NCBI GenBank assembly: GCA_011389745.1
Contig: JAABTQ010000003.1
Span: 11,520-75,519 of the forward strand
DNA length: 64,000 bases
Direction of reading: 5' to 3'
Source of the DNA: Desulfobacteraceae bacterium
GTDB lineage: Bacteria > Desulfobacterota > Desulfobacteria > Desulfobacterales > SKZT01
In this document: piece by piece, positions 2 through 34,733 of the stretch
Position numbering within the stretch: the stretch's first letter is position 1
How the letters are laid out: every line of letters begins with the position of its first letter
Notes under the pieces: model-generated
Told to the model about the DNA's origin: nothing
The model's input: only the letters and a program-made list of their open reading frames with translations
The model's database searches: none
Program-made: the position numbers and the translations under genes

Positions 2-445
2 GACAACCAATTTCCTTTTGCCCGAATGTGGGAAACTCCCGGAGTATGGCCCCATGAAGAACCTCTTTTGGTCATGAAAGACGGCGTTGTTCCGTTTTCC
101 GGCGGAGAAGCCATCTACCGAAGTCTGCCCATGGATCAGATAAGATCGCCGATCCCTCTGGACCATCCGGACCATATTCTGCTGGGTCAAAAAGGATACC
201 ACAATTTCTGCGCACCTTGCCATGGGCCAAATCACGATGGAATAGGGACAGTCGGCCAAAGTTTTGCACCGCTTCCCACCGACCTAAGAAGTGAAAAAGT
301 ACAGGCCTATTCCGAAGGAGAAATGTTTAAAGATATCAGCTATGGTGAGGAAGGAAAACGTCAGCCTCCCCTGGCGACAACCATCGATATGACAACCCGG
401 TGGCAAATCATTGCCTATGTCAGATCTCTCGGGCTCCGCCCCTGA
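2..445 (+). CDS. monohaem c-type cytochrome (class I, ActE-like); 5' end probably upstream of window
   Basis: The protein has a single CxxCH haem site (FCAPCHG) and a C-terminal RWQIIAYVRSL helix. The frame is open from base 2 to the first ATG at 26 with no stop. Confidence 0.75.
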   Translation, partial: DNQFPFARMWETPGVWPHEEPLLVMKDGVVPFSGGEAIYRSLPMDQIRSPIPLDHPDHILLGQKGYHNFCAPCHGPNHDGIGTVGQSFAPLPTDLRSEKVQAYSEGEMFKDISYGEEGKRQPPLATTIDMTTRWQIIAYVRSLGLRP

Positions 446-3095
446 ATATGTTCACCCCTTGAAAAACAATCCGGATACATGCGACCTTTGCGGCCTGAAT
501 CTTGCCTCGGGTATCCGGAGACTAACCCGCAAAGGTCAAGAATATCGGTTTTGTTGCATCGGATGCAAACAGGTATTTCGCATGCTTGCCGATGCCACCG
601 AAAATCCCGACATTTCATCCTTTAAAGATACTGAAATATTCAAACAATGTCAGGCTCTGGGAATTATTCCCCGCAACGACCCGGAAACAGAAAAAAAACA
701 GGCTGATTTTTCTGAAAATCAATCTGAAATATCCGAAGAAATTGAAAATGACCATCTGCTTCAGCTCCGGCTATCGGTGGAAGGCATGTGGTGTCCGGCC
801 TGCGCATGGGTCATCGAAAATTCCCTGTTAAAACACAACGGTGTTTTCAAAGCCTCCTGCAATTTTTCAACAGATCGCATAGCTTTATCATATGACCCGG
901 TTAAAACATCACCTCATCAAATATCCAGGGCCATAAACAGCCTGGGATATACGCTTTCAATTTCCGGTGAAACATCAGAATCAAAACAGCGGAAAAAAGA
1001 ATTTATCCGGTTCGGTATCTCAGCATTTCTGACCATGAATGTCATGATGCTGTCTTTTTCATTATACTCCGGTTTTTTTACCGAGCTTTCCGTCGACAGT
1101 ATCCGCTACATCTCCTGGCCTATATTATTGATGGCTACGGTGGTGCTGGTTTACGGGGGACAAAAAATTCACCAAAAAGGATGGGCCCCGTGGCGATCAT
1201 TCGGATTCGGCATGGAAACATTGATCAGCGCGGGATCTTTATGCGCCTATTTTTTCAGCGTTTATCATTTTTTATCCAACAGCATTCATCTTTATTTTGA
1301 TACATCTTCCATGCTGATTACCCTGGTGCTGCTGGGAAAAATTCTGGAAAGCCGTGCAAAAGAAAGTGTTGTCAAAGATCTGGAAAGCTTTTTTTCTCTG
1401 GTTCCCAACAAGGTTCGGATTACCACACCGGCGTTTCCTGACGGAAAATACGTATCCGCCAGGCAGCTTATAGAAGGTGATTGTTTTATTCTGGAAGAAA
1501 ACGAAATTGCTCCGGCGGACGGGCTGGTTATTGACGGCAGGGGCGCCATGGATGAATCAACTCTGACCGGAGAGGCAGCGCCGAAAAATAAAACAGCCGG
1601 TGACCGTATCACAAGCGGCACACGGATTATTTCAGGCAAACTTATTGTTAAAGCCGAAATCATCGGAGAAAACTCCGTACTGGGCCAGATGATCCTTATA
1701 ATGGAAAAGGCACTTGGGCAAAAGACTCCTTTGGAAGGAAAAACCGATACTGCCTTGAGATGGTTTGTCCCAATGATTTTATTTTTGGCTGTAGGAACCG
1801 GCCTGGTTGGAATTTTAATTGGACTTTCCCCTGAAAAGGCAACTGTGCGTGCCGTCACCGTGATGGTTATTTCCTGTCCTTGTGCCCTGGGAATCGCCAT
1901 TCCTCTGGCCCGTGTGGCTGGAATTTCGCTGGCTGCCCGCCAGGGTATCCTCGTGCGGGATTTTTCCGCATTTGAGTCGGCCCCAAATATTGACACCGTT
2001 GTTTTCGATAAAACCGGCACCCTTACCACCGGAGATTGGCGCATTTTAAAGGTGGACAGCATCCCTCCCTGGACAGAAGATGAGATCATTGCACTGGCAG
2101 CCGGGCTGGAACAAAATTCAGAACATCATATCGGCACGATTATCCGGCAGTACGCCCGGCAAAAAAAAATCATTCTGTCCGGTGTCTCACAAATTTTAAT
2201 TCATGAAAACGGAGTTTTCGGAATTTTTGAAAATAAACAGATCAGAATCGGGTCAGAATCTTTTTGCTCCCTGACCTGTGACGAAATTGCAACCGGTTTG
2301 AACAATTTATCCCTTCATAGTGGAAAAACAGCAGGTAATTTAAACAAGTTATCCCAATCCACCGGGGAACTGGCGGAGGATTCGGACCGTTCCTTTCTCA
2401 TCAGTAGGGAAATGGCGGGTGATGCCGACCTTGACTCCCTCTACCAGCGGGAGAGGGCCGGGGTGAGGGAGTTAAAGTCGCACAATTCAGATGATCAGGC
2501 CATACCCTCATTTGTTTATTTAACTATGGGCAGCAAGATTATCGGCCGGATCATCTTTGGCGATCAAATTAAAAAAGGGGCGATTGAAACGATCCAAAGC
2601 CTTCATGAAAGACGTTATCAAACAGTTATGGTTTCAGGAGACAATCAAAACGCTACCTTGAAAGTCGCCCAAGCTCTTGGCATTCAAAATGCTCACGGCG
2701 AAATGACCCCTGCTCAAAAATCCGATTTTATCAGCAGGTTAAAAGGAAAAGGAAAAACCGTTGCCATGGCCGGCGACGGCATAAATGATGCCCCGGCCCT
2801 TGCAGGAGCGGATCTGGCCATGGCGGTTCACGCAGGAAGCCTTCTGGGAAAAGAAGCCGCCCATCTGACCCTTATGAGAGGTGAGCCATTGCAGATCATC
2901 GATTTTTTAGGCCTGGCCCGAAGGGTCAACAGGAAAATATACCAAAACCTGATTTTTTCGTTACTGTACAATGTTATCGCTATTCCCGTGGCCATGGCCG
3001 GCCTTCTGTCGCCTCTTGTGGCTGTCTGCGCCATGCTTCTGAGCAGCCTGAGCGTTACCGGTAATACATTGTTATTGATGAAAAAAAATCGGTAG
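411..3095 (+). CDS. P1B-type heavy-metal (probably Cu+) translocating ATPase, CcoI/FixI-like
   Basis: P-type ATPase motifs are present: LTGEA (TGE), SCPCALGIA (CPC), DKTGTLT and GDGINDAP. The N-terminus has a CDLCG...FCCIGCKQVF metal-binding domain and one HMA CxxC (GMWCPACAW). The start overlaps the cytochrome gene by 35 nt. Confidence 0.92.
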   Translation: MPMSDLSGSAPEYVHPLKNNPDTCDLCGLNLASGIRRLTRKGQEYRFCCIGCKQVFRMLADATENPDISSFKDTEIFKQCQALGIIPRNDPETEKKQADFSENQSEISEEIENDHLLQLRLSVEGMWCPACAWVIENSLLKHNGVFKASCNFSTDRIALSYDPVKTSPHQISRAINSLGYTLSISGETSESKQRKKEFIRFGISAFLTMNVMMLSFSLYSGFFTELSVDSIRYISWPILLMATVVLVYGGQKIHQKGWAPWRSFGFGMETLISAGSLCAYFFSVYHFLSNSIHLYFDTSSMLITLVLLGKILESRAKESVVKDLESFFSLVPNKVRITTPAFPDGKYVSARQLIEGDCFILEENEIAPADGLVIDGRGAMDESTLTGEAAPKNKTAGDRITSGTRIISGKLIVKAEIIGENSVLGQMILIMEKALGQKTPLEGKTDTALRWFVPMILFLAVGTGLVGILIGLSPEKATVRAVTVMVISCPCALGIAIPLARVAGISLAARQGILVRDFSAFESAPNIDTVVFDKTGTLTTGDWRILKVDSIPPWTEDEIIALAAGLEQNSEHHIGTIIRQYARQKKIILSGVSQILIHENGVFGIFENKQIRIGSESFCSLTCDEIATGLNNLSLHSGKTAGNLNKLSQSTGELAEDSDRSFLISREMAGDADLDSLYQRERAGVRELKSHNSDDQAIPSFVYLTMGSKIIGRIIFGDQIKKGAIETIQSLHERRYQTVMVSGDNQNATLKVAQALGIQNAHGEMTPAQKSDFISRLKGKGKTVAMAGDGINDAPALAGADLAMAVHAGSLLGKEAAHLTLMRGEPLQIIDFLGLARRVNRKIYQNLIFSLLYNVIAIPVAMAGLLSPLVAVCAMLLSSLSVTGNTLLLMKKNR

Positions 3096-7871: not shown

Positions 7872-8807
7872 ATGAAAAAACTATTTCTTTGCGGATTAAT
7901 CATACTATCCTTCACAGGTTCAGTGTTGGGAGACACAGTATTTAAAGTGGGTACCTGGAAAACCCCACAGACCATCCAGCCGTTTTTCTATGATCAGTTT
8001 CTTTCGCAAAAGGTTGAGGTTTTTTCGTTCACCAATCCGGCTGATCAAAAAACCGCTTTGCTGGCCGGAAGTCTCGATATGTGCGGCACTACTCTGGCAC
8101 ACGCCATTCACTCCGCATCCCAGGGCCAGCCGGTTGTAGTGGTGGCCGCCCTGTGCAACAAAAGTTCCGCTTTGGTGGTAAAAAAGGACGGGCCTATCCA
8201 AAGCACCGCCCAGCTCCAGGGCAAACGTATCGGCTATGTTCCCGGCACCATGCATGAAATCCTGCTGCGTGAAACCCTGATCCGTGCAAATCTTTCACCT
8301 GAAAAGGATGTCCATCTGACACGGGTGGATTTTTTCGATATGGGCCTGGCTTTGGCCCGAGGCGGTATCGATGCATTTTTGTCGGGAGAACCTTTTCCCA
8401 CCTTAACGGTTCATGAAGGTTACGGCCGCATTCTGGAATACCCCTACTATGACGATAGTGTGGGAACCATCAATGCCGCTATGCTGGTTACCCGTGGGAG
8501 TATTGAGAAAAATTCGGACAAAATTTTACAACTGGTCAAAGCCCATGCCCAGGCCACCAGATTTTTACATCAGCACCCGGATCAGTGGCTGGGTCGGGCT
8601 GCAACGTTTGGTACGGATCGAATAGTATTGGACAAAGCCGCACACAACATGGAGTTGGCCTGGGAAATGGATGCTTCTTTTGTCGAGCGTGCAAAAGCAC
8701 TGGGTGCACGCATGGAGACTTTAAAAGTCATTGAACGCCGGCCGGATTACGATAAACTGTTTGACCTTCAATTTGTCCAACAGGTCAAAGCGGAGCTGGA
8801 GCCTTGA
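7872..8807 (+). CDS. ABC transporter substrate-binding protein, NitT/TauT (NMT1/SsuA-like) family
   Basis: It has the signal peptide MKKLFLCGLIILSFTGSVLG and a periplasmic-binding-protein-like sequence. It is followed by a cognate permease and ATPase. Confidence 0.8.
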   Translation: MKKLFLCGLIILSFTGSVLGDTVFKVGTWKTPQTIQPFFYDQFLSQKVEVFSFTNPADQKTALLAGSLDMCGTTLAHAIHSASQGQPVVVVAALCNKSSALVVKKDGPIQSTAQLQGKRIGYVPGTMHEILLRETLIRANLSPEKDVHLTRVDFFDMGLALARGGIDAFLSGEPFPTLTVHEGYGRILEYPYYDDSVGTINAAMLVTRGSIEKNSDKILQLVKAHAQATRFLHQHPDQWLGRAATFGTDRIVLDKAAHNMELAWEMDASFVERAKALGARMETLKVIERRPDYDKLFDLQFVQQVKAELEP

Positions 8808-9595
8808 AAAACCTTCATCATTATCACCGGATACTTCCGTGGATCATTCCCGCCATTTTTCTGACAGGCTGGTTTTTTGCCGGAAAATTCAATTGGATAC
8901 CGGAATATTTGCTTCCTGATCCTTTTCGCATCATTAAATCCGGACATGTCTACCTTTTTGCCGAGGCCGGCAGTGGGCCCTACGCGGGCCGATTTCTTGA
9001 AGATGCTGCTGCCAGTCTTCTGCGGGTTGGCTTTGGTTTTTCACTTGCGGTTGTCCTGGGCATTCCTTTAGGGGTTCTTTCAGGGCGTATGAAAATCTGC
9101 CGCCACCTGATAAGCACTACTATCAACGGGCTTCGGGCAGTGCCCGGTATTTGTTGGCTCCCTTTGGCCCTGGTATGGTTCGGTATCGGTATGCAAACCA
9201 CAGTTTTTCTGGTAGCCTTGGCAGCCTTTTTTCCCATTTATATCAATACTGCCGCAGGTACCCGCCAGGTCAGCCCCCTGCTCTACCAGGCAGGCGCCAT
9301 GCTGGGTGTGGGTCGTTTTCGGGGAGTCTTTGCCATTTTGCTTCCGGCAGCTATGCCCCAGATTATCAGCGGCCTTCGCCTGGGGCTGGGACTTGCATGG
9401 GCCTATCTGGTACTGGGAGAACTTACCGGAGTGCCCAGCGGACTGGGTGCTGTGATTATGGATGCCCGGATGCTGGGTCGCATCGACATCATTATTGTGG
9501 GTATCATCATTATTGCCGGCATGGGTCGCTTTAGTGATCTTTTGTTGAACACCATACTGCGTTTATTTTTTAAATCAGCACGGAGAATGGGATGA
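8804..9595 (+). CDS. ABC transporter permease, NitT/TauT family
   Basis: The protein is a six-TM-like hydrophobic protein with an EAA-type loop. The TTG start overlaps the upstream stop, indicating translational coupling. Confidence 0.85.
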   Translation: MKNLHHYHRILPWIIPAIFLTGWFFAGKFNWIPEYLLPDPFRIIKSGHVYLFAEAGSGPYAGRFLEDAAASLLRVGFGFSLAVVLGIPLGVLSGRMKICRHLISTTINGLRAVPGICWLPLALVWFGIGMQTTVFLVALAAFFPIYINTAAGTRQVSPLLYQAGAMLGVGRFRGVFAILLPAAMPQIISGLRLGLGLAWAYLVLGELTGVPSGLGAVIMDARMLGRIDIIIVGIIIIAGMGRFSDLLLNTILRLFFKSARRMG

Positions 9596-10377
9596 ACAAA
9601 CCCTTTCAATTAATCCGGTCCAGGCCGGCCACCACGGAACAGCAGCCGGCATTGTCAATTTGCAAGGTGAGCAAAATCTTTCCCGCGGACAACGGCTTCT
9701 TAAATGTGCTGGATAATGTGAGTTTCGATATGACCTCCGGAGAACTGATTTGCCTTCTGGGACCCAGCGGATGCGGCAAAACCACCCTTCTGAAGCTAAT
9801 TGCCGGATTTATGAAACCCAGTGCCGGAAACATCCGAATACACAACCGGACAGTGTCACGACCCGGACCTGATCGATGTGTGGTCTTTCAGGAGGATGCC
9901 CTGTTCCCATGGCTGACGGTGTCCGAGAATATTGCCTTTGGTGCCAAAGGACTCATGCCGAAAAGCAGGGTTGTCCCTGAAGTCCGTCGCCATCTGGAAA
10001 TGGTGGGACTCACCGCTTTCAAAGATTATCTTCCCAAAGAGATCTCAGGAGGTATGAAACAGCGTGTGGCTTTGGCCCGGGTACTTATTTTACAACCGCA
10101 GTTGCTGCTCATGGATGAACCTTTCGGTGCTCTTGACGCCCAGACCCGGGAAGACATGCAAAATCTGCTGCTATCTCTCTGGGAAAAATTTTCGCACACC
10201 ATTGTTTTTGTAACCCATGACCTTGTGGAAGCCATTACCCTGGCAGACCGCATTCTGGTCATGGGCACCAACCCGGGTCGAATCGAGTCGGAAATTCCGG
10301 TTACTCTCCCTCGTCCGCGTAAAAAAGAGAGCGATGCTTTTCACCATTTTTTTCGAAATCTGCGAAGTCACATGTAA
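9592..10377 (+). CDS. ABC transporter ATP-binding protein, NitT/TauT family
   Basis: Walker A GPSGCGKTT, signature ISGGMKQR and Walker B LLLMDEPFGALD are present. An ATGA overlap links it to the permease. Confidence 0.92.
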   Translation: MNKPFQLIRSRPATTEQQPALSICKVSKIFPADNGFLNVLDNVSFDMTSGELICLLGPSGCGKTTLLKLIAGFMKPSAGNIRIHNRTVSRPGPDRCVVFQEDALFPWLTVSENIAFGAKGLMPKSRVVPEVRRHLEMVGLTAFKDYLPKEISGGMKQRVALARVLILQPQLLLMDEPFGALDAQTREDMQNLLLSLWEKFSHTIVFVTHDLVEAITLADRILVMGTNPGRIESEIPVTLPRPRKKESDAFHHFFRNLRSHM

Positions 10378-10498: not shown

Positions 10499-10594
10499 TT
10501 ACGTCCGACAGTGGGGGCATACACCAAAAACCTCCAGGTGGTGCCCTTCGATAAGATCCCCGGTTTTGACCAAGACAGGCCCTGGCTTTGATCT
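10499..10594 (-). pseudogene. 3'-terminal stub of a Fur/PerR-family regulator
   Basis: The minus-strand translation ends ...KTGDLIEGHHLEVFGVCPHCRT*. This closely resembles the PerR C-terminus TGFKVSHHRLEIYGVCQEC. No DNA-binding or HHHxC region lies upstream and no start codon is present. Confidence 0.4.
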
Positions 10595-10710
10595 TATCTT
10601 ATTTGCAAGTTTAGACAATGCTCTCTTCGGGTGTAAATCTTTGAATAAGTTCGGTTTTGATGTTAAAGTGTAGTTTGCGATAATTTAATTTAATATAGGG
10701 AGGTCGTTAA

Positions 10711-11733
10711 ATGTATCTGGCTCAAAAAAGAATCAAAAAAACTTTACACTATTTTATCCGGCAATCGGTGAAAGGAGGTAAGGAAAAGGTCCAAACCCTG
10801 GAACTTTTTGATCTTGGCTCTGACCCTTCCAAATATATCATCTATCCCGGTGGACATGCCTTTTATATAGATGAAAAAATACAGCAACGACTTGAAGATA
10901 TCGGAATTGAAGTGACACAGGACGATTTGGAGGAAATTTTCTGGCCGTTCTTAAAACCCGATATCAAGAGGGCGCTGGAACCTTTTCGGAGCCGGGGCAA
11001 TGCCAAAAACAGAAGAAAAATGACCCCCTCCCGGGAAGAAAATCTTCGGGCAAAAACCCACCCATTTGATAAACGAAGGTTACATTACTTAAAATTTGGA
11101 AGAATGAATCAGGGGTATGTCGGAAAAATGTCGGGAAAACTGCTAAGGGATTTGGAAGGAAAATCCAGGGATGAAATTGAGCAATATTTTTGGAGAACGG
11201 AAACACAGATTCTAAAAAGGCATGAACTAAAAACTTATTTATATGTTGTTTTCGATCTCCAGCGGTTTTTCACATCACATTGGGCCAATAACGCTCCTGA
11301 ACTGGTTAATGAAGATTCATTGGATGAATATTTCCTTCAGGAAATTTGCCGTCTGAACAGCTCGGATAATTTCTGGGTGGGTGAATTGCACGATAAGAGA
11401 CTTCATGACTATCTGATCCGTTATTTGATTATGTTTTTTGACAATGATTTTACTCAAAGAAATCTTGCAGGTGAATTTTTCAGGGATTTTGTAAACCAAC
11501 ACAGAACATTCAGGGGATATCCGCAAAAAATAACCGTGGACATTCAAGAGGCAAGCACCATTTTCGGAGTATCGCAGGAGACCTTGAATTCGATCTCCAA
11601 AACCAATCTCATACGGCTATATCGGCGTCTTGCCCAAAAGCATCACCCCGACCTGGGAGGTGAACATGAAAAATTCATAAGGCTTACAGAAGCTTTTCAG
11701 TCAACCATGCGCAAACGGCGATTTATCGCATAA
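10711..11733 (+). CDS. protein of unknown function with C-terminal J-domain (DnaJ-like)
   Basis: The last ~60 aa carry LIRLYRRLAQKHHPDLGGEHEKFIRLTEAFQ with the HPD tripeptide. There is no G/F region or zinc-finger. An AGGGAGG RBS lies upstream. Confidence 0.8.
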   Translation: MYLAQKRIKKTLHYFIRQSVKGGKEKVQTLELFDLGSDPSKYIIYPGGHAFYIDEKIQQRLEDIGIEVTQDDLEEIFWPFLKPDIKRALEPFRSRGNAKNRRKMTPSREENLRAKTHPFDKRRLHYLKFGRMNQGYVGKMSGKLLRDLEGKSRDEIEQYFWRTETQILKRHELKTYLYVVFDLQRFFTSHWANNAPELVNEDSLDEYFLQEICRLNSSDNFWVGELHDKRLHDYLIRYLIMFFDNDFTQRNLAGEFFRDFVNQHRTFRGYPQKITVDIQEASTIFGVSQETLNSISKTNLIRLYRRLAQKHHPDLGGEHEKFIRLTEAFQSTMRKRRFIA

Positions 11734-12748
11734 AATGAAAAAGCGTTTGTTTCGCTTCATCCAGACTGGGTAAAATGTCGTTTTGACGAAGCTGCAAATT
11801 CAATTCCTCGGCTATTGGTTGAAGCAGTGCATAAAGTAAACCAGACCGGACTCGAATTTCACTCGGCAAAATCCCGGTTTTGGAAAATTGGTTAACCAGG
11901 ACACCCGGAACCTTGCCCCACATATCTTCCAGCGACGGATCCGCCAAAAAAGTCTCATGACCCACAACCATGCCGCTTTTGGATTCTACGACCATCAGCA
12001 TATAAGGAAGCGACGGTCTTTGATTTTTTTCACCGATTTTTGCGGGAAAAATGAAAAAATCAATTTCGAACACCATATCGGCATGCAGCATTTTTCTTAA
12101 AGCCTCCAGGTCTGCTTTGTTCACCAGGATAGGAATAGGCTCCGGGTCCGGGGGCGGTATTTCCATAATCTTGTCCTCCCAAATTATGGAGTTTCCTTTC
12201 TTGACAGGAATCCGCATGAGATACATCATATCATCAAGATCCAGAAGATATTCATCCTCTTCAAGCCGGCGACCAACATCAATGACCTGTTCCAATGCAT
12301 ATATAAGAAAACGGACCTCATCTCCGGTAACGTACCATGGAAGATATCCCGGACGGATGCTTCGGAACCTCGGCCAGGCATTTTTCCCTCTGAATTTCAA
12401 ATTCAGTTTCTTTATGTATGAATAGTCTTTTTTATCCAAAATATCCCGATTTTCAAAGGAAACCTGCAATTGTTGAACTTCCATGATCTGTTCTGCTGCA
12501 CCATAACCCACAGCATCCTGGAAATCCCAGAAATCATAAAGTGCTTTGGTCCCCTTGTAGACAGCAATACCAAAATGCAAGCCTTCCATACCCATCACAC
12601 TGACAAATCCAAGTTCTCCGGTTTCCGGATTTTTAAGGCCGAAAACATCTGTTTCACCCATTAGGTTCCACGGGGCCATTTCCTTAATTTTTCCGGCAAG
12701 CCTGAAAAGTTCTCTCAATTCCTCCAACAGCGGTTGTTGTTCCTCCAT
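11723..12748 (-). CDS. conserved hypothetical protein (341 aa)
   Basis: This is a long clean ORF with no motif I can name. Its 3' end overlaps the convergent J-domain gene by 11 nt. Confidence 0.7.
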   Translation of the reverse strand: MEEQQPLLEELRELFRLAGKIKEMAPWNLMGETDVFGLKNPETGELGFVSVMGMEGLHFGIAVYKGTKALYDFWDFQDAVGYGAAEQIMEVQQLQVSFENRDILDKKDYSYIKKLNLKFRGKNAWPRFRSIRPGYLPWYVTGDEVRFLIYALEQVIDVGRRLEEDEYLLDLDDMMYLMRIPVKKGNSIIWEDKIMEIPPPDPEPIPILVNKADLEALRKMLHADMVFEIDFFIFPAKIGEKNQRPSLPYMLMVVESKSGMVVGHETFLADPSLEDMWGKVPGVLVNQFSKTGILPSEIRVRSGLLYALLQPIAEELNLQLRQNDILPSLDEAKQTLFHFMR

Positions 12749-15202: not shown

Positions 15203-15460
15203 ATGCCTGAAATATGTCGTTTTTTCGGAATTATAATATTTATGAACTATAATGACCATGATCCTCCTCACTTTCATGCCAGGTATGAGGATCAGGAAAT
15301 TACTATGGAAATCAAGAGCAGGATCGTTAAAGGCCGGATGTCACAGAGAGCACTTCGAATGGTTTTTGAATGGTCTGAAATCTACCATGAAGAACTACTG
15401 GAAAATTGGCGGCTTGCAAGAGAACGTAAGCAACTTGAAAAAATCCCGCCACTGCCATAG
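15203..15460 (+). CDS. DUF4160 domain protein
   Basis: MPEICRFFGIIIFMNYNDHDPPHFHARY is the characteristic N-terminus of this family. Confidence 0.8.
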   Translation: MPEICRFFGIIIFMNYNDHDPPHFHARYEDQEITMEIKSRIVKGRMSQRALRMVFEWSEIYHEELLENWRLARERKQLEKIPPLP

Positions 15461-15470
15461 GGAGGAATAT

Positions 15471-15725
15471 ATGTTTCTGCACGTTACTAATGTGATTTAT
15501 TTGAAGAACTACCAGTTACGACTGGAATTTGACGATGGGAAAATCAAGGATATAGACTTGAATGATGAATTGTATGGTGAAATATTTGAGCCGCTGAAAG
15601 ATACTGAACTTTTCAAGAAAGTTTATATTAATCCGGATACCGGCACTATCGAATGGCCAAATGGAGCTGATTTTGCACCAGAGTTCCTTTATGAATCAGG
15701 GCGGGAAATAAGGAAAAGTGCTTGA
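15471..15725 (+). CDS. DUF2442 domain protein
   Basis: MFLHVTNVIYLKNYQLRLEFDDGKIKDIDL is family-typical. The ATG at 15471 follows a GGGAGGAA RBS. It is paired with the upstream DUF4160 gene. Confidence 0.8.
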   Translation: MFLHVTNVIYLKNYQLRLEFDDGKIKDIDLNDELYGEIFEPLKDTELFKKVYINPDTGTIEWPNGADFAPEFLYESGREIRKSA

Positions 15726-15882: not shown

Positions 15883-17221
15883 ATGAACAAGGAAGCACTG
15901 AAACAGCTTGAAAACGACCTCTGGCGAAGCGCGGACACGCTGAGAGCCAATTCGGATCTCAAATCCACCGAGTATTCCACCCCGGTTCTGGGGCTCATCT
16001 TCTTGAAATTTGCCGACAACCGGTACCGCCGCTTTGAAAAGGAAATTCTTCGGGAATATACCCGGCTCAAAGGCACCCGCCGGGAAAAACCTTTAAGTGA
16101 CATTGCCATTGAAAAGTGCGGTTTTTATATTCCGGAACATGCCCGCTATGATTATCTGCTAAATCTTCCGGAAAAAGAGGATATGGCCAGCGCCATCAAA
16201 AAAGCCATGGAAGCCATTGAAGAATACAAACCCGAGCTTCGCGGCGTGCTTCCATGGGATGAATATTTCCGGCTGACCCGCACGGACAAAACCATTCCTG
16301 CCCAGTTGCTGAAAAACTTCTCCAATATTCCATCAAATGCCGAGGGAGATATTTTCGGCCAGATTTATGAATATTTCCTGGGCAACTTTGCCATGGCCGA
16401 AGGCCAGGGCGGAGGCGAATTCTTTACGCCCCGTTCGGTGGTGCGACTGATGGTGGAGATTATCGAGCCTTTCGGAGGCAAGGTCTTTGATCCGGCCTGC
16501 GGCTCAGGAGGCATGTTCGTGCAGTATGGAAAAGCTGGCTGAAAACAAGGAAAAGATCGGCCCTGTTGCGGAACAGCTTCTGGAAGTGCTGGAAAACGGC
16601 GGCGGCAAACAAGCGGTGGGGGATCTGATGGCACAATGGGGAGGACTCAAAAAACTGACGGCTCAGTATGACCGATATCTTGCCGATGATTTTCATGATC
16701 CGGATATCAGCAGGAAAAACAGCGCCCAGCACTCGCTTCGGGAAGCTTTTGATCCGTTTTTTAAAAGTCTTCATGAGGGAATGAAACAGTTGGGAAAGAT
16801 CATCCGGCACCATGAACGGGAGCAGGCCGAGGCCGCCAAAAAGGAAAACAAAAGGTCGGCTGCGGACCGGAAAACCAAAGCATTGAAAACGGCTCTGGAA
16901 GAACTTCAGGCAGGGATCAAAGATGCTGAAAGTTTTTTCAAACATATCCACTGGCTCCAGGAACGTTTTCCGGAAGCTGAATACGAGGACGTCACCGGGC
17001 TTTGCAAACTGGCCACTATCGAGGAGATCAAAGAGCAGGATTATTCCCTGAATCCGGGAAGGTATGTGGGGGTGGTGATTGAGGAGGATGGTAAGACCGA
17101 GGAGGAATTTATTGAGGAGTTGCTGGGTATGAATGATGAGCTCCAAACCATCGATGATGAAGCCAATATCTTAAATAAAATAATATCCCATAATATCAGA
17201 AAGCTAGTTGGAGAAATATGA
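15883..17221 (+). pseudogene. hsdM: type I R-M methyltransferase HsdM with internal deletion and frameshift
   Basis: The N-terminal HsdM domain runs through motif I (FDPACGSGGMFVQ) and stops 6 codons later. The frame switches near 16524 into a coiled-coil C-terminal tail ending ...DYSLNPGRYVGV. No NPPF/NPPY catalytic motif occurs in any frame. Confidence 0.85.
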
Positions 17222-32713: not shown

Positions 32714-32890
32714 ATGAGTATTCAACCCAAAGGCGAACATATTCGCAATGTAATCAAATGGGTTTCCGAAGAACGAACCTACCACCCGGAAACCCCGATA
32801 AGTGAAATGGTGGCAAAGGCTTCCGTCCGCTTCAATCTTTCCCCTTTGGAAGTCGACTGGCTTGAACGGTTTATCAAAGAAAAAGAATAA
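32714..32890 (+). CDS. small hypothetical protein (58 aa), below ORF-track cutoff
   Basis: The ORF reads ATG...TAA and encodes MSIQPKGEHIRNVIKWVSEERTYHPETPISEMVAKASVRFNLSPLEVDWLERFIKEKE. A purine-rich AAAGGAAA lies upstream. It fills the gatA-mutL gap exactly. Confidence 0.45.
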   Translation: MSIQPKGEHIRNVIKWVSEERTYHPETPISEMVAKASVRFNLSPLEVDWLERFIKEKE

Positions 32891-32897
32891 AACAATC

Positions 32898-34733
32898 GTG
32901 ACTAAGATAAGGATTCTTCCGGATATTCTCTCCAACAAAATAGCCGCTGGTGAAGTTGTTGAGCGTCCCGGTTCGGTGGTTAAAGAGTTGGTGGAAAACG
33001 CCCTGGATGCTCAAAGCACTCAGGTATTGGTGGAAATTGAAAACGGGGGTAAATCCCTGATTCGAATTTCCGATAACGGTTGCGGTATGGGTCATGATGA
33101 TGCTCTTCTGGCCATCGAGCGGTTTGCAACAAGCAAAATTTATAGTGATCATGATCTTTTTAATATCAGCACGCTTGGTTTCAGAGGAGAAGCCATCCCA
33201 AGCATTGCTTCGGTGTCTCGCTTTACCCTGATCACCCGTGAAGGTCTTTCCGAATCCGGAATTTCAATCAAAATCGATGGTGGAAAAATCATAAACGTCT
33301 CTGAAACAGGTGCTCCAATCGGAACCATGGTTTCAGTCGGGCAACTATTTTATAATACCCCTGCACGGAGAAAGTTTTTAAAAACCACCAACACCGAAAT
33401 GGGCCACATTGCCGATACGGTATCTTCAATGGCCATGGCCCATCCTGGGGTACAATTCAGGCTGACCCACAACGGCAAAGAAGTAAAAAGGCTTTCATCA
33501 GTATCGGATCCGCTCGATAGAATATCCAAGGTAATCGGTGATACCCTGAAAAAAGACCTTTATCCTGTAAATTTTACCAATGATACCGTCAGTATCTCGG
33601 GGGCCATAGCATCACCCCGAATCAACCGTACCACCTCCAGAGCGATATTTATCTATGTCAACGGCAGGTATATCAGGGACCGGATGATTCAACACGCCAT
33701 TTTCCAAGGCTACGGCCAGCGGCTGATGAAAGGACAATTTCCGGTAGCGGTCTTGTTTTTAAAGGTCCCGACGCAAACCGTGGATGTCAATGTTCACCCG
33801 ACCAAGCATGAAGTGCGATTTTCCGAACAAAAAAAAATACATGATTCGGTTCAATACGTTATCGGAGAAACATTGAAAATATGGGAAAATTCCGTTAAAT
33901 GGCCGTTGCATCAGGGGGATCAATCAGATCCTGTCCGTATCCTTGAGTCTTCCGACACATTTGTTCAGGCCATTGATCAACAGCCAACCCCGGATCCTGT
34001 TTCAAGACCGTACACAAATCCTGACAGGCCAAAAAATACCCCGAACATTGCTGCTTTACCCAAGACCGTTCCTGTCTCCCAATTGCGGGAAATCGAGCCG
34101 AAACAAAGTGATCCGCTACCAAAACAGCAAGTCTTATGGCAAAAGAAACAATTTTCCGATTTGAAAATCATCGGACAATGCCATCATACCTACATTCTTC
34201 TTGAGTATGATCAAGGCATAATCCTGCTGGATCAGCATGCCGCTCATGAACGAATCTTGTATGAACGTATGAAAAAAAGATCGTCTGAAGTCCAAAACGG
34301 CTCCCAGCAGCTCATTGTCCCGGAGACCTTTGATCTGGGATTTTCTGAACGCGATATATTAGAAAAGATCATGCCGTTGTTTGAAAGGATCGGCCTTTAC
34401 ATAGAACCCTTTGGCGGAAATACTTTCGTTGTTAAAGCTGTACCGGCACTTCTCGAAGGAAAAGAAATACAGCCCCTGATTCGTGACATTATCGAAAAAA
34501 TTCTTGAAACAGGCATCTCTCAGGATTTAACTTCGGCAATGGACACAAGCTATAAGCTGATGGCTTGTCATGGAGCAATCAGAGCAGGCCAAAAACTTTC
34601 CGAACTGCAAATCAAAGGACTTCTTCAACAACTGGATGAATGTGAAACCCCTTCCAATTGCCCTCATGGACGTCCTACCTGGATTCGATGGGAGCTGAAA
34701 TTCCTTGAAAAATCCTTTCACAGAATTGTTTAA
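32898..34733 (+). CDS. mutL: DNA mismatch repair protein MutL
   Basis: The GHKL N-terminus IRILPDILSNKIAAGEVVERP...DNGCGM is present, with the C-terminal endonuclease-type region ACHGAIRAG...CPHGRP. The GTG start at 32898 was chosen over the ORF-track start at 32802. Confidence 0.93.
   Translation: MTKIRILPDILSNKIAAGEVVERPGSVVKELVENALDAQSTQVLVEIENGGKSLIRISDNGCGMGHDDALLAIERFATSKIYSDHDLFNISTLGFRGEAIPSIASVSRFTLITREGLSESGISIKIDGGKIINVSETGAPIGTMVSVGQLFYNTPARRKFLKTTNTEMGHIADTVSSMAMAHPGVQFRLTHNGKEVKRLSSVSDPLDRISKVIGDTLKKDLYPVNFTNDTVSISGAIASPRINRTTSRAIFIYVNGRYIRDRMIQHAIFQGYGQRLMKGQFPVAVLFLKVPTQTVDVNVHPTKHEVRFSEQKKIHDSVQYVIGETLKIWENSVKWPLHQGDQSDPVRILESSDTFVQAIDQQPTPDPVSRPYTNPDRPKNTPNIAALPKTVPVSQLREIEPKQSDPLPKQQVLWQKKQFSDLKIIGQCHHTYILLEYDQGIILLDQHAAHERILYERMKKRSSEVQNGSQQLIVPETFDLGFSERDILEKIMPLFERIGLYIEPFGGNTFVVKAVPALLEGKEIQPLIRDIIEKILETGISQDLTSAMDTSYKLMACHGAIRAGQKLSELQIKGLLQQLDECETPSNCPHGRPTWIRWELKFLEKSFHRIV

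What the first reader, a model, noticed from the sequence alone, without database searches (positions are those of the whole stretch)
10711..12748. Orphan C-terminal J-domain protein overlapping tail-to-tail with a conserved hypothetical of the same size
The 340-aa ORF has a bona fide J-domain signature only at its extreme C-terminus (LYRRLAQKHHPDLGGEHEKFIRLTEAFQ). It has no G/F linker, Zn-finger or DnaJ C-terminal domains. Its first ~280 aa match nothing I recognise. The N-terminus MYLAQKRIKKTLHYFIRQSVKGGKEKVQTLELFDLG weakly recalls the N-terminal segment of IS1634-type transposases.

Its stop codon region overlaps by 11 nt the 3' end of a convergent 341-aa ORF of unknown function. Such overlap gives potential for antisense or transcriptional interference.

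The pair sits at the edge of the decayed accessory patch, next to the Fur stub. A J-domain fused to an unknown targeting domain implies recruitment of DnaK/Hsp70 to a specific client. This is the least explained protein-coding content in the window.
Basis: partly seen in the sequence, partly recalled or inferred. Interest (0 to 1): 0.55.

Follow-up and report, generated by a model that had tools for sequence, protein, structure and literature searches.

The report
Lineage-specific J-domain co-chaperone beside unrelated gene
The 340-aa gene is a real member of a conserved, Desulfobacterales-centred family of Hsp70 co-chaperones (a J-domain fused to an uncharacterised targeting domain), and its tail-to-tail overlap with the neighbouring gene is local synteny, not a general gene pair.

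Summary
ORF A (10711-11733, +, 340 aa) and ORF B (11723-12748, -, 341 aa) converge and share 11 nt. Both are real genes under purifying selection.

A is not an orphan. It belongs to a family with one fixed architecture: a ~275-aa N-domain plus a C-terminal J-domain with an invariant HPD. The family was found at 532 places in species-representative genomes, and the best 80 are nearly all Desulfobacterales MAGs. The N-domain has no Pfam, NCBIfam, PHROG, PDB-sequence or Foldseek match and was seen only in this architecture. A is therefore a class C J-domain protein with an unknown client.

B is a DUF7309+DUF6930 protein with a weak RNase H-like fold signal and a much broader distribution.

The pairing idea largely fails. 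B lies next to A in 3 of 80 A loci, and A next to B in 4 of 80 B loci. All of these are close relatives, and two close relatives lack B. Neither gene has a conserved neighbour, and neither occurs on phages, plasmids or in PADLOC.

The IS1634 recollection holds only for a ~30-aa N-terminal module, and weakly. A divergent subfamily sits directly behind a P-type cation ATPase.

Verdict: an ordinary new member of a known kind, of modest interest.

The parts
10657..10684 (+). Promoter-like site upstream of A (TTGATG-16-GATAAT, with TG)
   Evidence: Consensus scan only; 9 of 12 matches. Weak evidence. It is compatible with A being transcribed on its own, after a 333-nt gap from the ABC-transporter ATPase gene.
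10698..10703 (+). Ribosome-binding site GGGAGG, 7 nt before the ATG of A
   Evidence: Read directly from the sequence.
10711..11733 (+). Gene A: 340-aa class C J-domain protein (coordinates include the stop codon)
   Evidence: ORF. Full-length homologues of 330-345 aa. AF2 model with mean pLDDT 85.8. dN/dS 0.11-0.14.
10711..10869 (+). A residues 1-53: N-terminal beta module (five strands)
   Evidence: AF2 secondary structure. Residues 2-38 of the family consensus match a 98-aa Priestia/Bacillus plasmid protein (tblastn E 3e-5; 33.4 bits). Residues 15-42 align weakly with the N-terminus of one IS1634 transposase subgroup.
10873..11505 (+). A residues 55-265: helical part of the family-specific N-domain. 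It carries the invariant motifs FDKRRxHYL (residues 119-127, nt 11065-11091) and KSRDEIEQ (residues 151-158, nt 11161-11184) and a basic segment at residues 93-131.
   Evidence: Alignments. Charge profile: net +7.7 for residues 93-131, family median pI 9.3. No Pfam, NCBIfam, PADLOC, PHROG, PDB or Foldseek match.
11542..11715 (+). A residues 278-335: J-domain (helices I-III; HPD at residues 312-314, nt 11644-11652)
   Evidence: H312, P313 and D314 are invariant in 120 sequences.
11723..11733 (.). 11-nt tail-to-tail overlap of the 3' ends of A and B
   Evidence: and the sequence. The same overlap is seen in L003, L005 and L081-L084, but not in L002.
11740..11758 (.). Short hairpin just after the stop of A and inside the last codons of B; scored as terminator-like on the minus strand
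   Evidence: Consensus scan only; 6-bp stem with 3 GC pairs. Weak evidence.
11723..12748 (-). Gene B: 341-aa protein with DUF7309 (residues 12-179, nt 12212-12715) and DUF6930 (residues 214-336, nt 11741-12109)
   Evidence: Pfam E 9.4e-51 and 1.4e-22. AF2 mean pLDDT 93.3. Weak Foldseek matches to RNase H-like transposase and integrase cores, best E 2e-4. dN/dS 0.09-0.21.

Best explanation
Gene A encodes a soluble, basic class C (type III) J-domain protein. It belongs to a family found mainly in Desulfobacterales.

Shown:
- The architecture is fixed across the family: a ~275-aa family-specific N-domain, a short flexible linker and a C-terminal three-helix J-domain with an invariant HPD.
- The N-domain was seen in no other architecture and resembles no characterised family or solved fold.
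- The gene usually stands alone among housekeeping genes.

Inferred from what is established for J-domains:
- The HPD loop and helix II dock on the resident DnaK and trigger ATP hydrolysis. DnaK is thereby brought to whatever the N-domain binds.

Inferred more weakly:
- The partner is one specific client rather than bulk misfolded protein.
- Its nature may be nucleic-acid-associated or membrane-proximal. The hints are the basic charge of A, the short N-terminal module shared with a transposase N-terminus, and the position of one subfamily behind a P-type ATPase.

Gene B is an independent gene (DUF7309+DUF6930, tandem alpha/beta domains with RNase H-like topology) and has a much broader distribution. 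The convergent 11-nt overlap with A is an arrangement inherited within one sub-lineage, not a conserved two-gene system.
For: Family and architecture:
- One search gives 1220 hits, and the top 120 are full length.
- Searches show invariant HPD, FDKRR and KSRDEIEQ motifs.
- the N-domain profile finds only 292 clusters among 1.84 billion representatives, and every full-length one listed is about 305-370 aa.
- nine of the ten distant members examined keep the HPD; the tenth has a scrambled C-terminus.
- 532 genome loci, and the best 80 are nearly all Desulfobacterales MAGs.

J-domain:
-.
- The equivalents of DnaJ K26/R27 (R305/R306) are conserved. The DnaK-contact residues are taken from PMC8215388.

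No known family for the N-domain.

Independence of A and B:
- B is adjacent in 3/80 A loci. A is adjacent in 4/80 B loci, of which 44 have at least 1 kb beyond the 3' end of B.
- L001 and L188, close relatives of A, lack B.
- No neighbour cluster is conserved for A (best 16/80) or for B (best 5/80).
- No J-protein lies beside B anywhere else.

Both genes are under purifying selection.
Against: - The window protein itself scores below Pfam's J-domain gathering score (20.2 vs 27.8 bits).
- The equivalents of DnaJ R22, K48 and K51 are not basic, so the Hsp70 partner and the strength of the interaction are unverified.
- Nothing computed here identifies the client.
- Within the sub-lineage, the A-B pair persists in at least five different flanking contexts. 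DNA homology ends within about 15-165 nt outside the two genes. This is more persistence than chance adjacency would predict and leaves room for a local functional link.
- Only the best 80 of the 532 A loci and of the 405 B loci were inspected.
Confidence: 0.7

Rival explanations
1. A and B form a functional two-gene module in this sub-lineage. Either B is the client or adaptor that A hands to DnaK, or the two genes regulate each other through their overlapping 3' ends.
For: - The pair is kept in at least five different flanking contexts while all other neighbours differ, and homology stops just outside the two genes.
- A and B diverge in step: 80/81%, 83/81% and 63/68% identity.
- The 11-nt overlap is conserved in 7 of 8 pairs.
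- A is basic (pI 9.5) and B is acidic (pI 4.9).
Against: - Outside the sub-lineage the two genes were never found adjacent in the loci inspected.
- Two close relatives of A (64% and 72% identical) have other genes downstream.
- The convergent orientation excludes an operon.
- No J-protein lies next to any other B homologue.
- B occurs in many environments where A was not seen.
- No repeats bound the pair as a cassette.
Confidence: 0.15
2. The N-domain binds nucleic acid. Its first ~40 residues would be a module shared with IS1634-type transposase N-termini and with small Bacillus plasmid proteins, so A would bring DnaK to a DNA- or RNA-protein complex.
For: - hhalign of the A N-domain against nine IS1634 N-termini gives P 4.8e-4, aligned in register (columns 15-42 vs 16-43).
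- Four of the nine score 11.7-15.1 bits with the A N-terminal HMM, above all 9800 shuffled decoys (maximum 9.9 bits).
- The Priestia 98-aa protein scores 33.4 bits. Its family is found on 302 plasmids, most of them Bacillus.
- The family is basic, with a +7.7 segment at residues 93-131.
- Bacterial class C J-proteins with DNA- and RNA-binding domains are known (PMC8215388).
Against: - The hhalign probability is only 32%.
- A second IS1634 subgroup gives nothing.
- Pfam and NCBIfam, which should include an IS1634 transposase model (my own recollection), report no hit.
- To my knowledge the function of that transposase N-terminus has not been determined, so DNA binding is an assumption.
- Foldseek found no DNA-binding fold.
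Confidence: 0.15
3. The family assists the biogenesis or regulation of membrane transporters. The position of a divergent subfamily directly behind a P-type cation ATPase would reflect the ancestral or general role.
For: - Three members that are 41-53% identical to each other (P0334, P0312, P0319) lie 12-80 nt downstream of a P2-type cation ATPase on the same strand, with otherwise different neighbours.
- Two other divergent members lie just behind a TauE gene and a DedA-like membrane-protein gene (the DedA-like call was made by eye).
- The window gene follows an ABC transporter.
Against: - Among the 80 Desulfobacterales loci there is no transporter cluster at position -1.
- Other divergent members follow SelB or an outer-membrane-like gene.
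- In the window the gap to the transporter is 333 nt and contains a minus-strand gene fragment.
- A has no predicted membrane segment.
- Membrane-protein genes are common, so some adjacency is expected by chance.
Confidence: 0.1
4. The J-domain is degenerate and no longer works with Hsp70, so the protein has another function.
For: - The window protein scores below Pfam's threshold.
- The domain has three helices only and a shortened HPD-helix III loop.
- The equivalents of DnaJ R22, K48 and K51 are not basic.
Against: - H312, P313, D314 and F322 are invariant in 120 sequences, and HPD is kept in nine of ten examined relatives, some as low as 28-35% identical.
- The equivalents of K26/R27 are conserved.
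- dN/dS is low.
- Tim14, a working J-protein (my own knowledge), is the best structural match for this short form.
Confidence: 0.05

Closest known systems
Class C (type III) J-domain proteins of bacteria with a C-terminal J-domain, e.g. DjlA
   Same: The J-domain is at the C-terminus with an HPD loop, and a non-DnaJ N-terminal part is presumed to give localisation or client specificity. Class C is defined as sharing only the J-domain with DnaJ (PMC8215388, PMC10410713).
   Different: No TerB-like domain or membrane segment is present. The NCBIfam DjlA model scores 15.8 bits against a cut-off of 162, over a short C-terminal stretch only (residues 260-314). The N-domain has no recognisable relative outside the family.
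Tim14/Pam18 J-domain (PDB 2guz)
   Same: It is the best Foldseek match. Both are compact J-domains of helices I-III without a long helix IV.
   Different: Tim14 is a mitochondrial membrane-anchored import-motor subunit. The resemblance is limited to the ~60-residue J fold (E 0.23, TM 0.68 on the target).
DnaJ/CbpA (class A/B J-domain proteins)
   Same: J-domain similarity: BLASTP E 2e-7 to the E. coli DnaJ J-domain and profile hits to solved DnaJ J-domains.
   Different: In A the J-domain is C-terminal rather than N-terminal. There is no G/F region, no Zn-finger and no DnaJ_C client-binding domain.
IS1634-family transposases (subgroup starting MYIERVPNRNSPPAxLLRESYREG...)
   Same: A ~30-residue N-terminal stretch, xIRESYRDGxxxRSRxLxxLG, aligns in register from the initiator Met.
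   Different: There is no DDE transposase domain, and nothing beyond residue ~45 is similar. The similarity is statistically weak, and a second IS1634 subgroup shows none.
Pfam DUF7309 / DUF6930 proteins (for gene B)
   Same: B matches both models strongly over their full length, and 85 of the 89 listed homologues carry both domains.
   Different: Nothing distinguishes B from the rest of the family. Both domains are uncharacterised, and no paper in the searched library mentions either name.

Membership tests
J-domain proteins (Pfam PF00226; Hsp70 co-chaperones) | His-Pro-Asp motif between helices II and III | tested here: met
   H312, P313 and D314 are invariant in 120 family members. HPD is kept in nine of ten examined distant members.
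J-domain proteins (Pfam PF00226; Hsp70 co-chaperones) | Sequence match to the J-domain model above the curated threshold | tested here: inconclusive
   The window protein scores 20.2 bits against a gathering score of 27.8. Many homologues carry a precomputed PF00226 hit. The family profile hits solved J-domains at E 4e-5. BLASTP to the E. coli DnaJ J-domain gives E 2e-7.
J-domain proteins (Pfam PF00226; Hsp70 co-chaperones) | J fold: antiparallel helices II and III with helix I | tested here: met
   The AF2 model has helices 278-285, 297-311 and 319-335 at pLDDT 85-92. Foldseek top hits are J-domains only: 2guz, 4j7z, 2dn9 and phage J-proteins.
J-domain proteins (Pfam PF00226; Hsp70 co-chaperones) | Basic helix II/III residues that contact DnaK (DnaJ R22, K26, R27, K48, K51; PMC8215388) | tested here: inconclusive
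   The K26/R27 equivalents R305/R306 are conserved (99% and 84% K/R). The R22, K48 and K51 equivalents are not basic.
J-domain proteins (Pfam PF00226; Hsp70 co-chaperones) | HPD-dependent stimulation of Hsp70 ATPase | not testable with these tools
   This needs a biochemical assay.
Class A/B DnaJ (Hsp40) | N-terminal J-domain, G/F region, DnaJ_C beta-sandwich domains, with or without a Zn-finger | tested here: not met
   The only Pfam hit is a partial DnaJ domain at residues 295-330. NCBIfam DnaJ equivalog models score 11-13 bits against cut-offs of 377-502.
DjlA | N-terminal membrane segment plus a TerB-like domain before the C-terminal J-domain | tested here: not met
   NF006948 scores 15.8 bits against a cut-off of 162, over residues 260-314 only. 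The model shows a soluble beta-plus-helical N-domain.
IS1634-family transposase | DDE transposase catalytic domain | tested here: not met
   No Pfam or NCBIfam transposase hit at E up to 1 for the full protein, or up to 10 for N-terminal fragments. No tblastn match to plasmid-borne transposases.
IS1634-family transposase | Shared N-terminal module | tested here: inconclusive
   Against subgroup b, hhalign gives P 4.8e-4 and probability 32%, and 4 of 9 sequences score above all 9800 decoys. Against subgroup a, the probability is 3.6%.
Conserved two-gene system A+B | Homologues of the two genes co-occur as neighbours across lineages | tested here: not met
   3/80 and 4/80 loci, all close relatives. 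The pair is absent in L001 and L188.
Anti-phage defence system or mobile element cargo | Match to a known defence protein model, or presence on phages or plasmids | tested here: not met
   PADLOC gives no hit for A or B. Neither is found in 2.9 million viral contigs or 72,556 plasmids. No flanking repeats.
DUF7309/DUF6930 family (gene B) | Both Pfam domains above threshold in the usual order | tested here: met
   172 bits and 80.6 bits against a cut-off of 27 for each.
RNase H-like / DDE nucleases (gene B) | RNase H-like fold with a conserved acidic catalytic triad | tested here: inconclusive
   Foldseek hits to TnsB, retroviral integrase cores and the Prp8 RNase H-like domain are weak (E 2e-4 to 1e-2). 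Each half of B has a beta-beta-beta-alpha-beta-alpha-beta-alpha order. Only scattered conserved acidic residues are seen (E32, E99, D108, D192, E228, D230), and I could not assign a triad.

The most novel reading that the evidence does not exclude
The ~275-aa N-domain would be a new fold that directs DnaK to a nucleoprotein or membrane-transporter client. Its first ~40 residues would be a small portable module shared with IS1634 transposase N-termini and with small proteins of Bacillus virulence-type plasmids. In the sub-lineage of this window the RNase H-like DUF7309/DUF6930 protein would be its dedicated partner. That would make a previously unrecognised chaperone-targeting pair.
Probability: 0.07. 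Interest if true: 0.6.

Novelty: new member of a known kind. Interest (0 to 1): 0.3.

Why it matters
Class C J-domain proteins decide where Hsp70 acts, and most bacterial ones have no known client. This family is a clean example. It has one fixed architecture, is conserved across many Desulfobacterales genomes, is well modelled (pLDDT 86), and its targeting domain is absent from current domain libraries.

It is therefore a reasonable candidate for a new domain-family entry and for a client hunt in a cultivable sulfate reducer. It does not change any general picture. Thousands of class C architectures are already catalogued (PMC10410713), and the gene pair that drew attention is not a system.

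Tried and rejected
- **Known family for the N-domain.** I searched Pfam, NCBIfam, PADLOC and PHROGs, PDB sequences with a profile, and Foldseek against PDB and BFVD. Apart from the J-domain matches there were only chance-level hits (best E 0.23).
- **Other architectures of the N-domain.** A profile search of 1.84 billion representatives listed only family members and fragments among the best 150. The weaker 142 hits are not visible to me.
- **A-B as a conserved pair.** Rejected on neighbourhood counts.
- **A-B as a mobile cassette.** There are no bounding direct or inverted repeats, and no phage or plasmid copies.
- **IS1634 homology.** The first test used the wrong transposase subgroup and gave nothing. 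A second subgroup, reached through a Priestia small protein, gave a weak positive. I keep this only as a short-module resemblance.
- **RNA element in or near the overlap.** No Rfam match at E up to 1.
- **Exact look-up of the window protein's contig.** Nothing was found.
- **Hsp70 gene in the window.** Ten of the larger ORFs were scanned and none is a DnaK; the 643-aa ORF at 32802-34733 is MutL.
Full report
**1. The observation**

One search confirms two convergent ORFs. A runs 10711-11733 on the plus strand (340 aa). B runs 11723-12748 on the minus strand (341 aa). They share 11 nt.

A has a GGGAGG site 7 nt before its ATG and a promoter-like site further upstream. It is separated by 333 nt from an ABC-transporter operon at 7872-10377. 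B has a purine-rich stretch before its ATG and lies 143 nt downstream of a HlyIII-family gene on the same strand.

Both ORFs are real genes. They have many full-length homologues. Their dN/dS against relatives is 0.09-0.21.

**2. What A is**

Pfam sees only a partial DnaJ domain, below threshold (20.2 vs 27.8 bits, residues 295-330). The family context settles the matter:

- The best 120 homologues are all 322-429 aa, and most carry a precomputed PF00226 hit.
- H312, P313, D314 and F322 are invariant in 120 sequences.
- The family profile matches solved J-domains, including E. coli DnaJ, at E 4e-5 to 1e-3.
- The AF2 model (mean pLDDT 85.8) has three helices at 278-335.
- Foldseek against PDB and BFVD returns J-domains and nothing else of note.

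The contacts described for the DnaJ-DnaK complex are R22, K26, R27, K48, K51 and HPD (PMC8215388). Of these, HPD and the K26/R27 equivalents are conserved here and the others are not. I therefore call the J-domain genuine. Its Hsp70 partner and potency remain untested.

There is no G/F region, Zn-finger or DnaJ_C domain. The DjlA model matches only a short C-terminal stretch. A is a class C J-domain protein.

**3. The N-domain**

The model shows the following:

- Residues 2-53 form five strands.
- Residues 55-265 are helical.
- Residues 266-277 are a low-confidence linker.

The alignment shows striking invariant charged motifs: FDKRRxHYL at 119-127 and KSRDEIEQ at 151-158. Further invariant residues include C213, Y238 and D244.

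The protein is basic. The family median pI is 9.3, and a variable segment at 93-131 has a net charge of +7.7.

No library recognises the N-domain. Foldseek finds no similar fold.

A profile of the N-domain alone found only 292 clusters among 1.84 billion representatives. All full-length ones listed are about 305-370 aa. Nine of the ten distant members I read keep a C-terminal HPD J-domain; the tenth has a scrambled C-terminus. As far as I could see, the N-domain exists only fused to this J-domain.

**4. Distribution and neighbourhood of A**

Two N-domain peptide patterns retrieved 532 confirmed loci from one-genome-per-species contigs. The best 80 are nearly all Desulfobacterales or 'Deltaproteobacteria' MAGs, and some genomes have two copies.

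Clustering of all ORFs in these 80 loci found no conserved neighbour. The best clusters occur in 16 of 80 loci and are an aminotransferase-like and an aldo/keto-reductase-like gene. Other neighbours include genes that look like FtsK, RNase J and biotin-synthesis genes (recognised by eye from the sequences), as well as SelB and pyruvate-dehydrogenase components (Pfam).

A is absent from 2.9 million viral contigs and 72,556 plasmids and has no PADLOC hit. It behaves as a chromosomal, lineage-specific housekeeping-type gene. It is not an orphan and not island cargo.

**5. What B is**

B matches DUF7309 and DUF6930 strongly, as do 85 of its 89 listed homologues. The model is very confident (pLDDT 93.3).

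Each half has the strand-helix order of an RNase H-like fold. Foldseek gives weak hits to TnsB, retroviral integrase cores and the Prp8 RNase H-like domain (E 2e-4 to 1e-2). I could not assign a catalytic triad from the conserved residues.

B homologues come from many kinds of metagenome. They have no conserved neighbour and are never next to another J-protein. B's function is unknown. No paper in the searched library mentions either DUF.

**6. The pairing**

B is adjacent to A in 3 of 80 A loci: L002, L003 and L005, where A is 62-80% identical to the window protein. A is adjacent to B in 4 of 80 B loci: L081-L084, where B is 80-82% identical. Of the 80 B loci, 44 have at least 1 kb beyond B's 3' end. 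Every locus with a more distant homologue of either gene lacks the other.

Within the sub-lineage the picture is less trivial:

- The pair survives in at least five different flanking contexts: the window, L005, L082/83, L081/84 and L002/03.
- DNA homology to the window ends within about 15-165 nt outside the two genes.
- The two proteins diverge in step.
- The 11-nt overlap is the same in 7 of 8 pairs.

Against a tight link:

- L001 (A 64% identical) and L188 (A 72% identical) have other genes downstream.
- L002 has a spacer instead of an overlap.
- No repeats bound the pair.

I read this as inherited synteny, possibly stabilised by the lack of neutral intergenic DNA. I give a residual 15% to a sub-lineage-specific functional link.

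Short convergent overlaps are a common feature of compact bacterial genomes (my own knowledge, not tested here). The generic 'potential for antisense' cannot be assessed without transcript data. No Rfam element lies in the region.

**7. The IS1634 recollection**

Full-length A has no transposase hit in any library.

A tblastn of the consensus N-terminus against plasmids found a 98-aa hypothetical protein of Priestia megaterium (E 3e-5, residues 2-38). Its family is on 302 plasmids, 291 of them Bacillus, including ~181-kb B. anthracis plasmids that I take from their size to be pXO1. That protein in turn touched an annotated IS1634-family transposase (E 0.2).

I collected nine such transposase N-termini. 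They begin MYIERVPNRNSPPAxLLRESYREGxxVKKRTLANLS. A begins MYLAxKxIKGKxHYFIRESYRDGxxLRSRDLFDLG.

- hhalign gives P 4.8e-4 and probability 32%, in register.
- An HMM of A residues 1-55 scores four of the nine at 11.7-15.1 bits, above every one of 9800 composition-matched decoys.
- Another IS1634 subgroup (MFVRKKKNKSGS...) shows nothing.

The recollection is therefore right at the level of a ~30-residue module and no further. What that module does in transposases is, to my knowledge, not established.

**8. A second local association**

Three divergent members (P0334, P0312, P0319) are 41-53% identical to each other and about 35% identical to the window protein. They lie 12-80 nt downstream of a P2-type cation ATPase on the same strand, in otherwise different surroundings. 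Other divergent members do not.

Like the A-B pair, this is a subclade-specific adjacency. It is a lead, not a finding.

**9. Mechanism and verdict**

Best supported: A is a specialised co-chaperone. Its J-domain activates DnaK, and its private N-domain selects a specific, still unknown partner. B is an unrelated neighbour.

The steps shown are the architecture, the conservation, the J fold and the lack of a conserved partner. The steps inferred are DnaK stimulation and client specificity. The steps only hinted at are nucleic-acid association and transporter association.

Given that thousands of class C architectures are already catalogued (PMC10410713), this is a new member of a known kind. 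Interest is modest (0.3).

Noticed in passing
window 10499-10618 (-): A 39-aa ORF ending ...GDLIEGHHLEVFGVCPHCRT looks like the C-terminal end of a Fur-family regulator with no N-terminal part. I recognised it by eye only.
   Followed up: no
window 15883-17221 (+): The type I restriction-modification methylase HsdM appears split into two overlapping ORFs: 15883-16542 (HsdM_N plus the start of N6_Mtase) and 16487-17221 (the end of N6_Mtase). This suggests a frameshift or pseudogene.
   Followed up: partly
window 15203-15725 (+): Adjacent small DUF4160 and DUF2442 genes lie between a TraB/GumN-family gene and the split hsdM.
   Followed up: no
L161:3974-4270 (Priestia megaterium plasmid NZ_CP069403.1) and 301 other plasmids: A 98-aa hypothetical protein shares the N-terminal module of the J-protein family (33.4 bits with the A N-terminal HMM). 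Its own family is on 302 plasmids, 291 of them Bacillus, including ~181-kb B. anthracis plasmids that are pXO1-sized. It has no Pfam, NCBIfam or PHROG hit.
   Followed up: partly
L177:3352-6996, L180:3357-6993, L179:1-1716: In a divergent subfamily, the J-protein gene directly follows a P2-type cation-transporting ATPase gene on the same strand, with gaps of 12-80 nt and otherwise different neighbours.
   Followed up: partly
protein P0209 (homologue of B): One distant relative of B combines DUF7309 with a SEC-C motif (PF02810) in place of DUF6930.
   Followed up: no
L081:2726 vs L083:3495: Two metagenome contigs are 97% identical in DNA across the A-B pair, but they lose all similarity about 140 nt beyond the start of B. 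This could be a recent rearrangement next to the pair or an assembly chimera.
   Followed up: partly
genome loci L012/L014 and L065/L077: Two MAGs each carry two copies of the J-protein gene on different contigs, so paralogues exist in some genomes.
   Followed up: no
window 411-3095 (+): A heavy-metal (HMA-domain) P-type ATPase lies 7.6 kb upstream of A. It is only 21% identical to the ATPases linked to the divergent subfamily, and seven genes lie in between, so I treat it as coincidence.
   Followed up: partly
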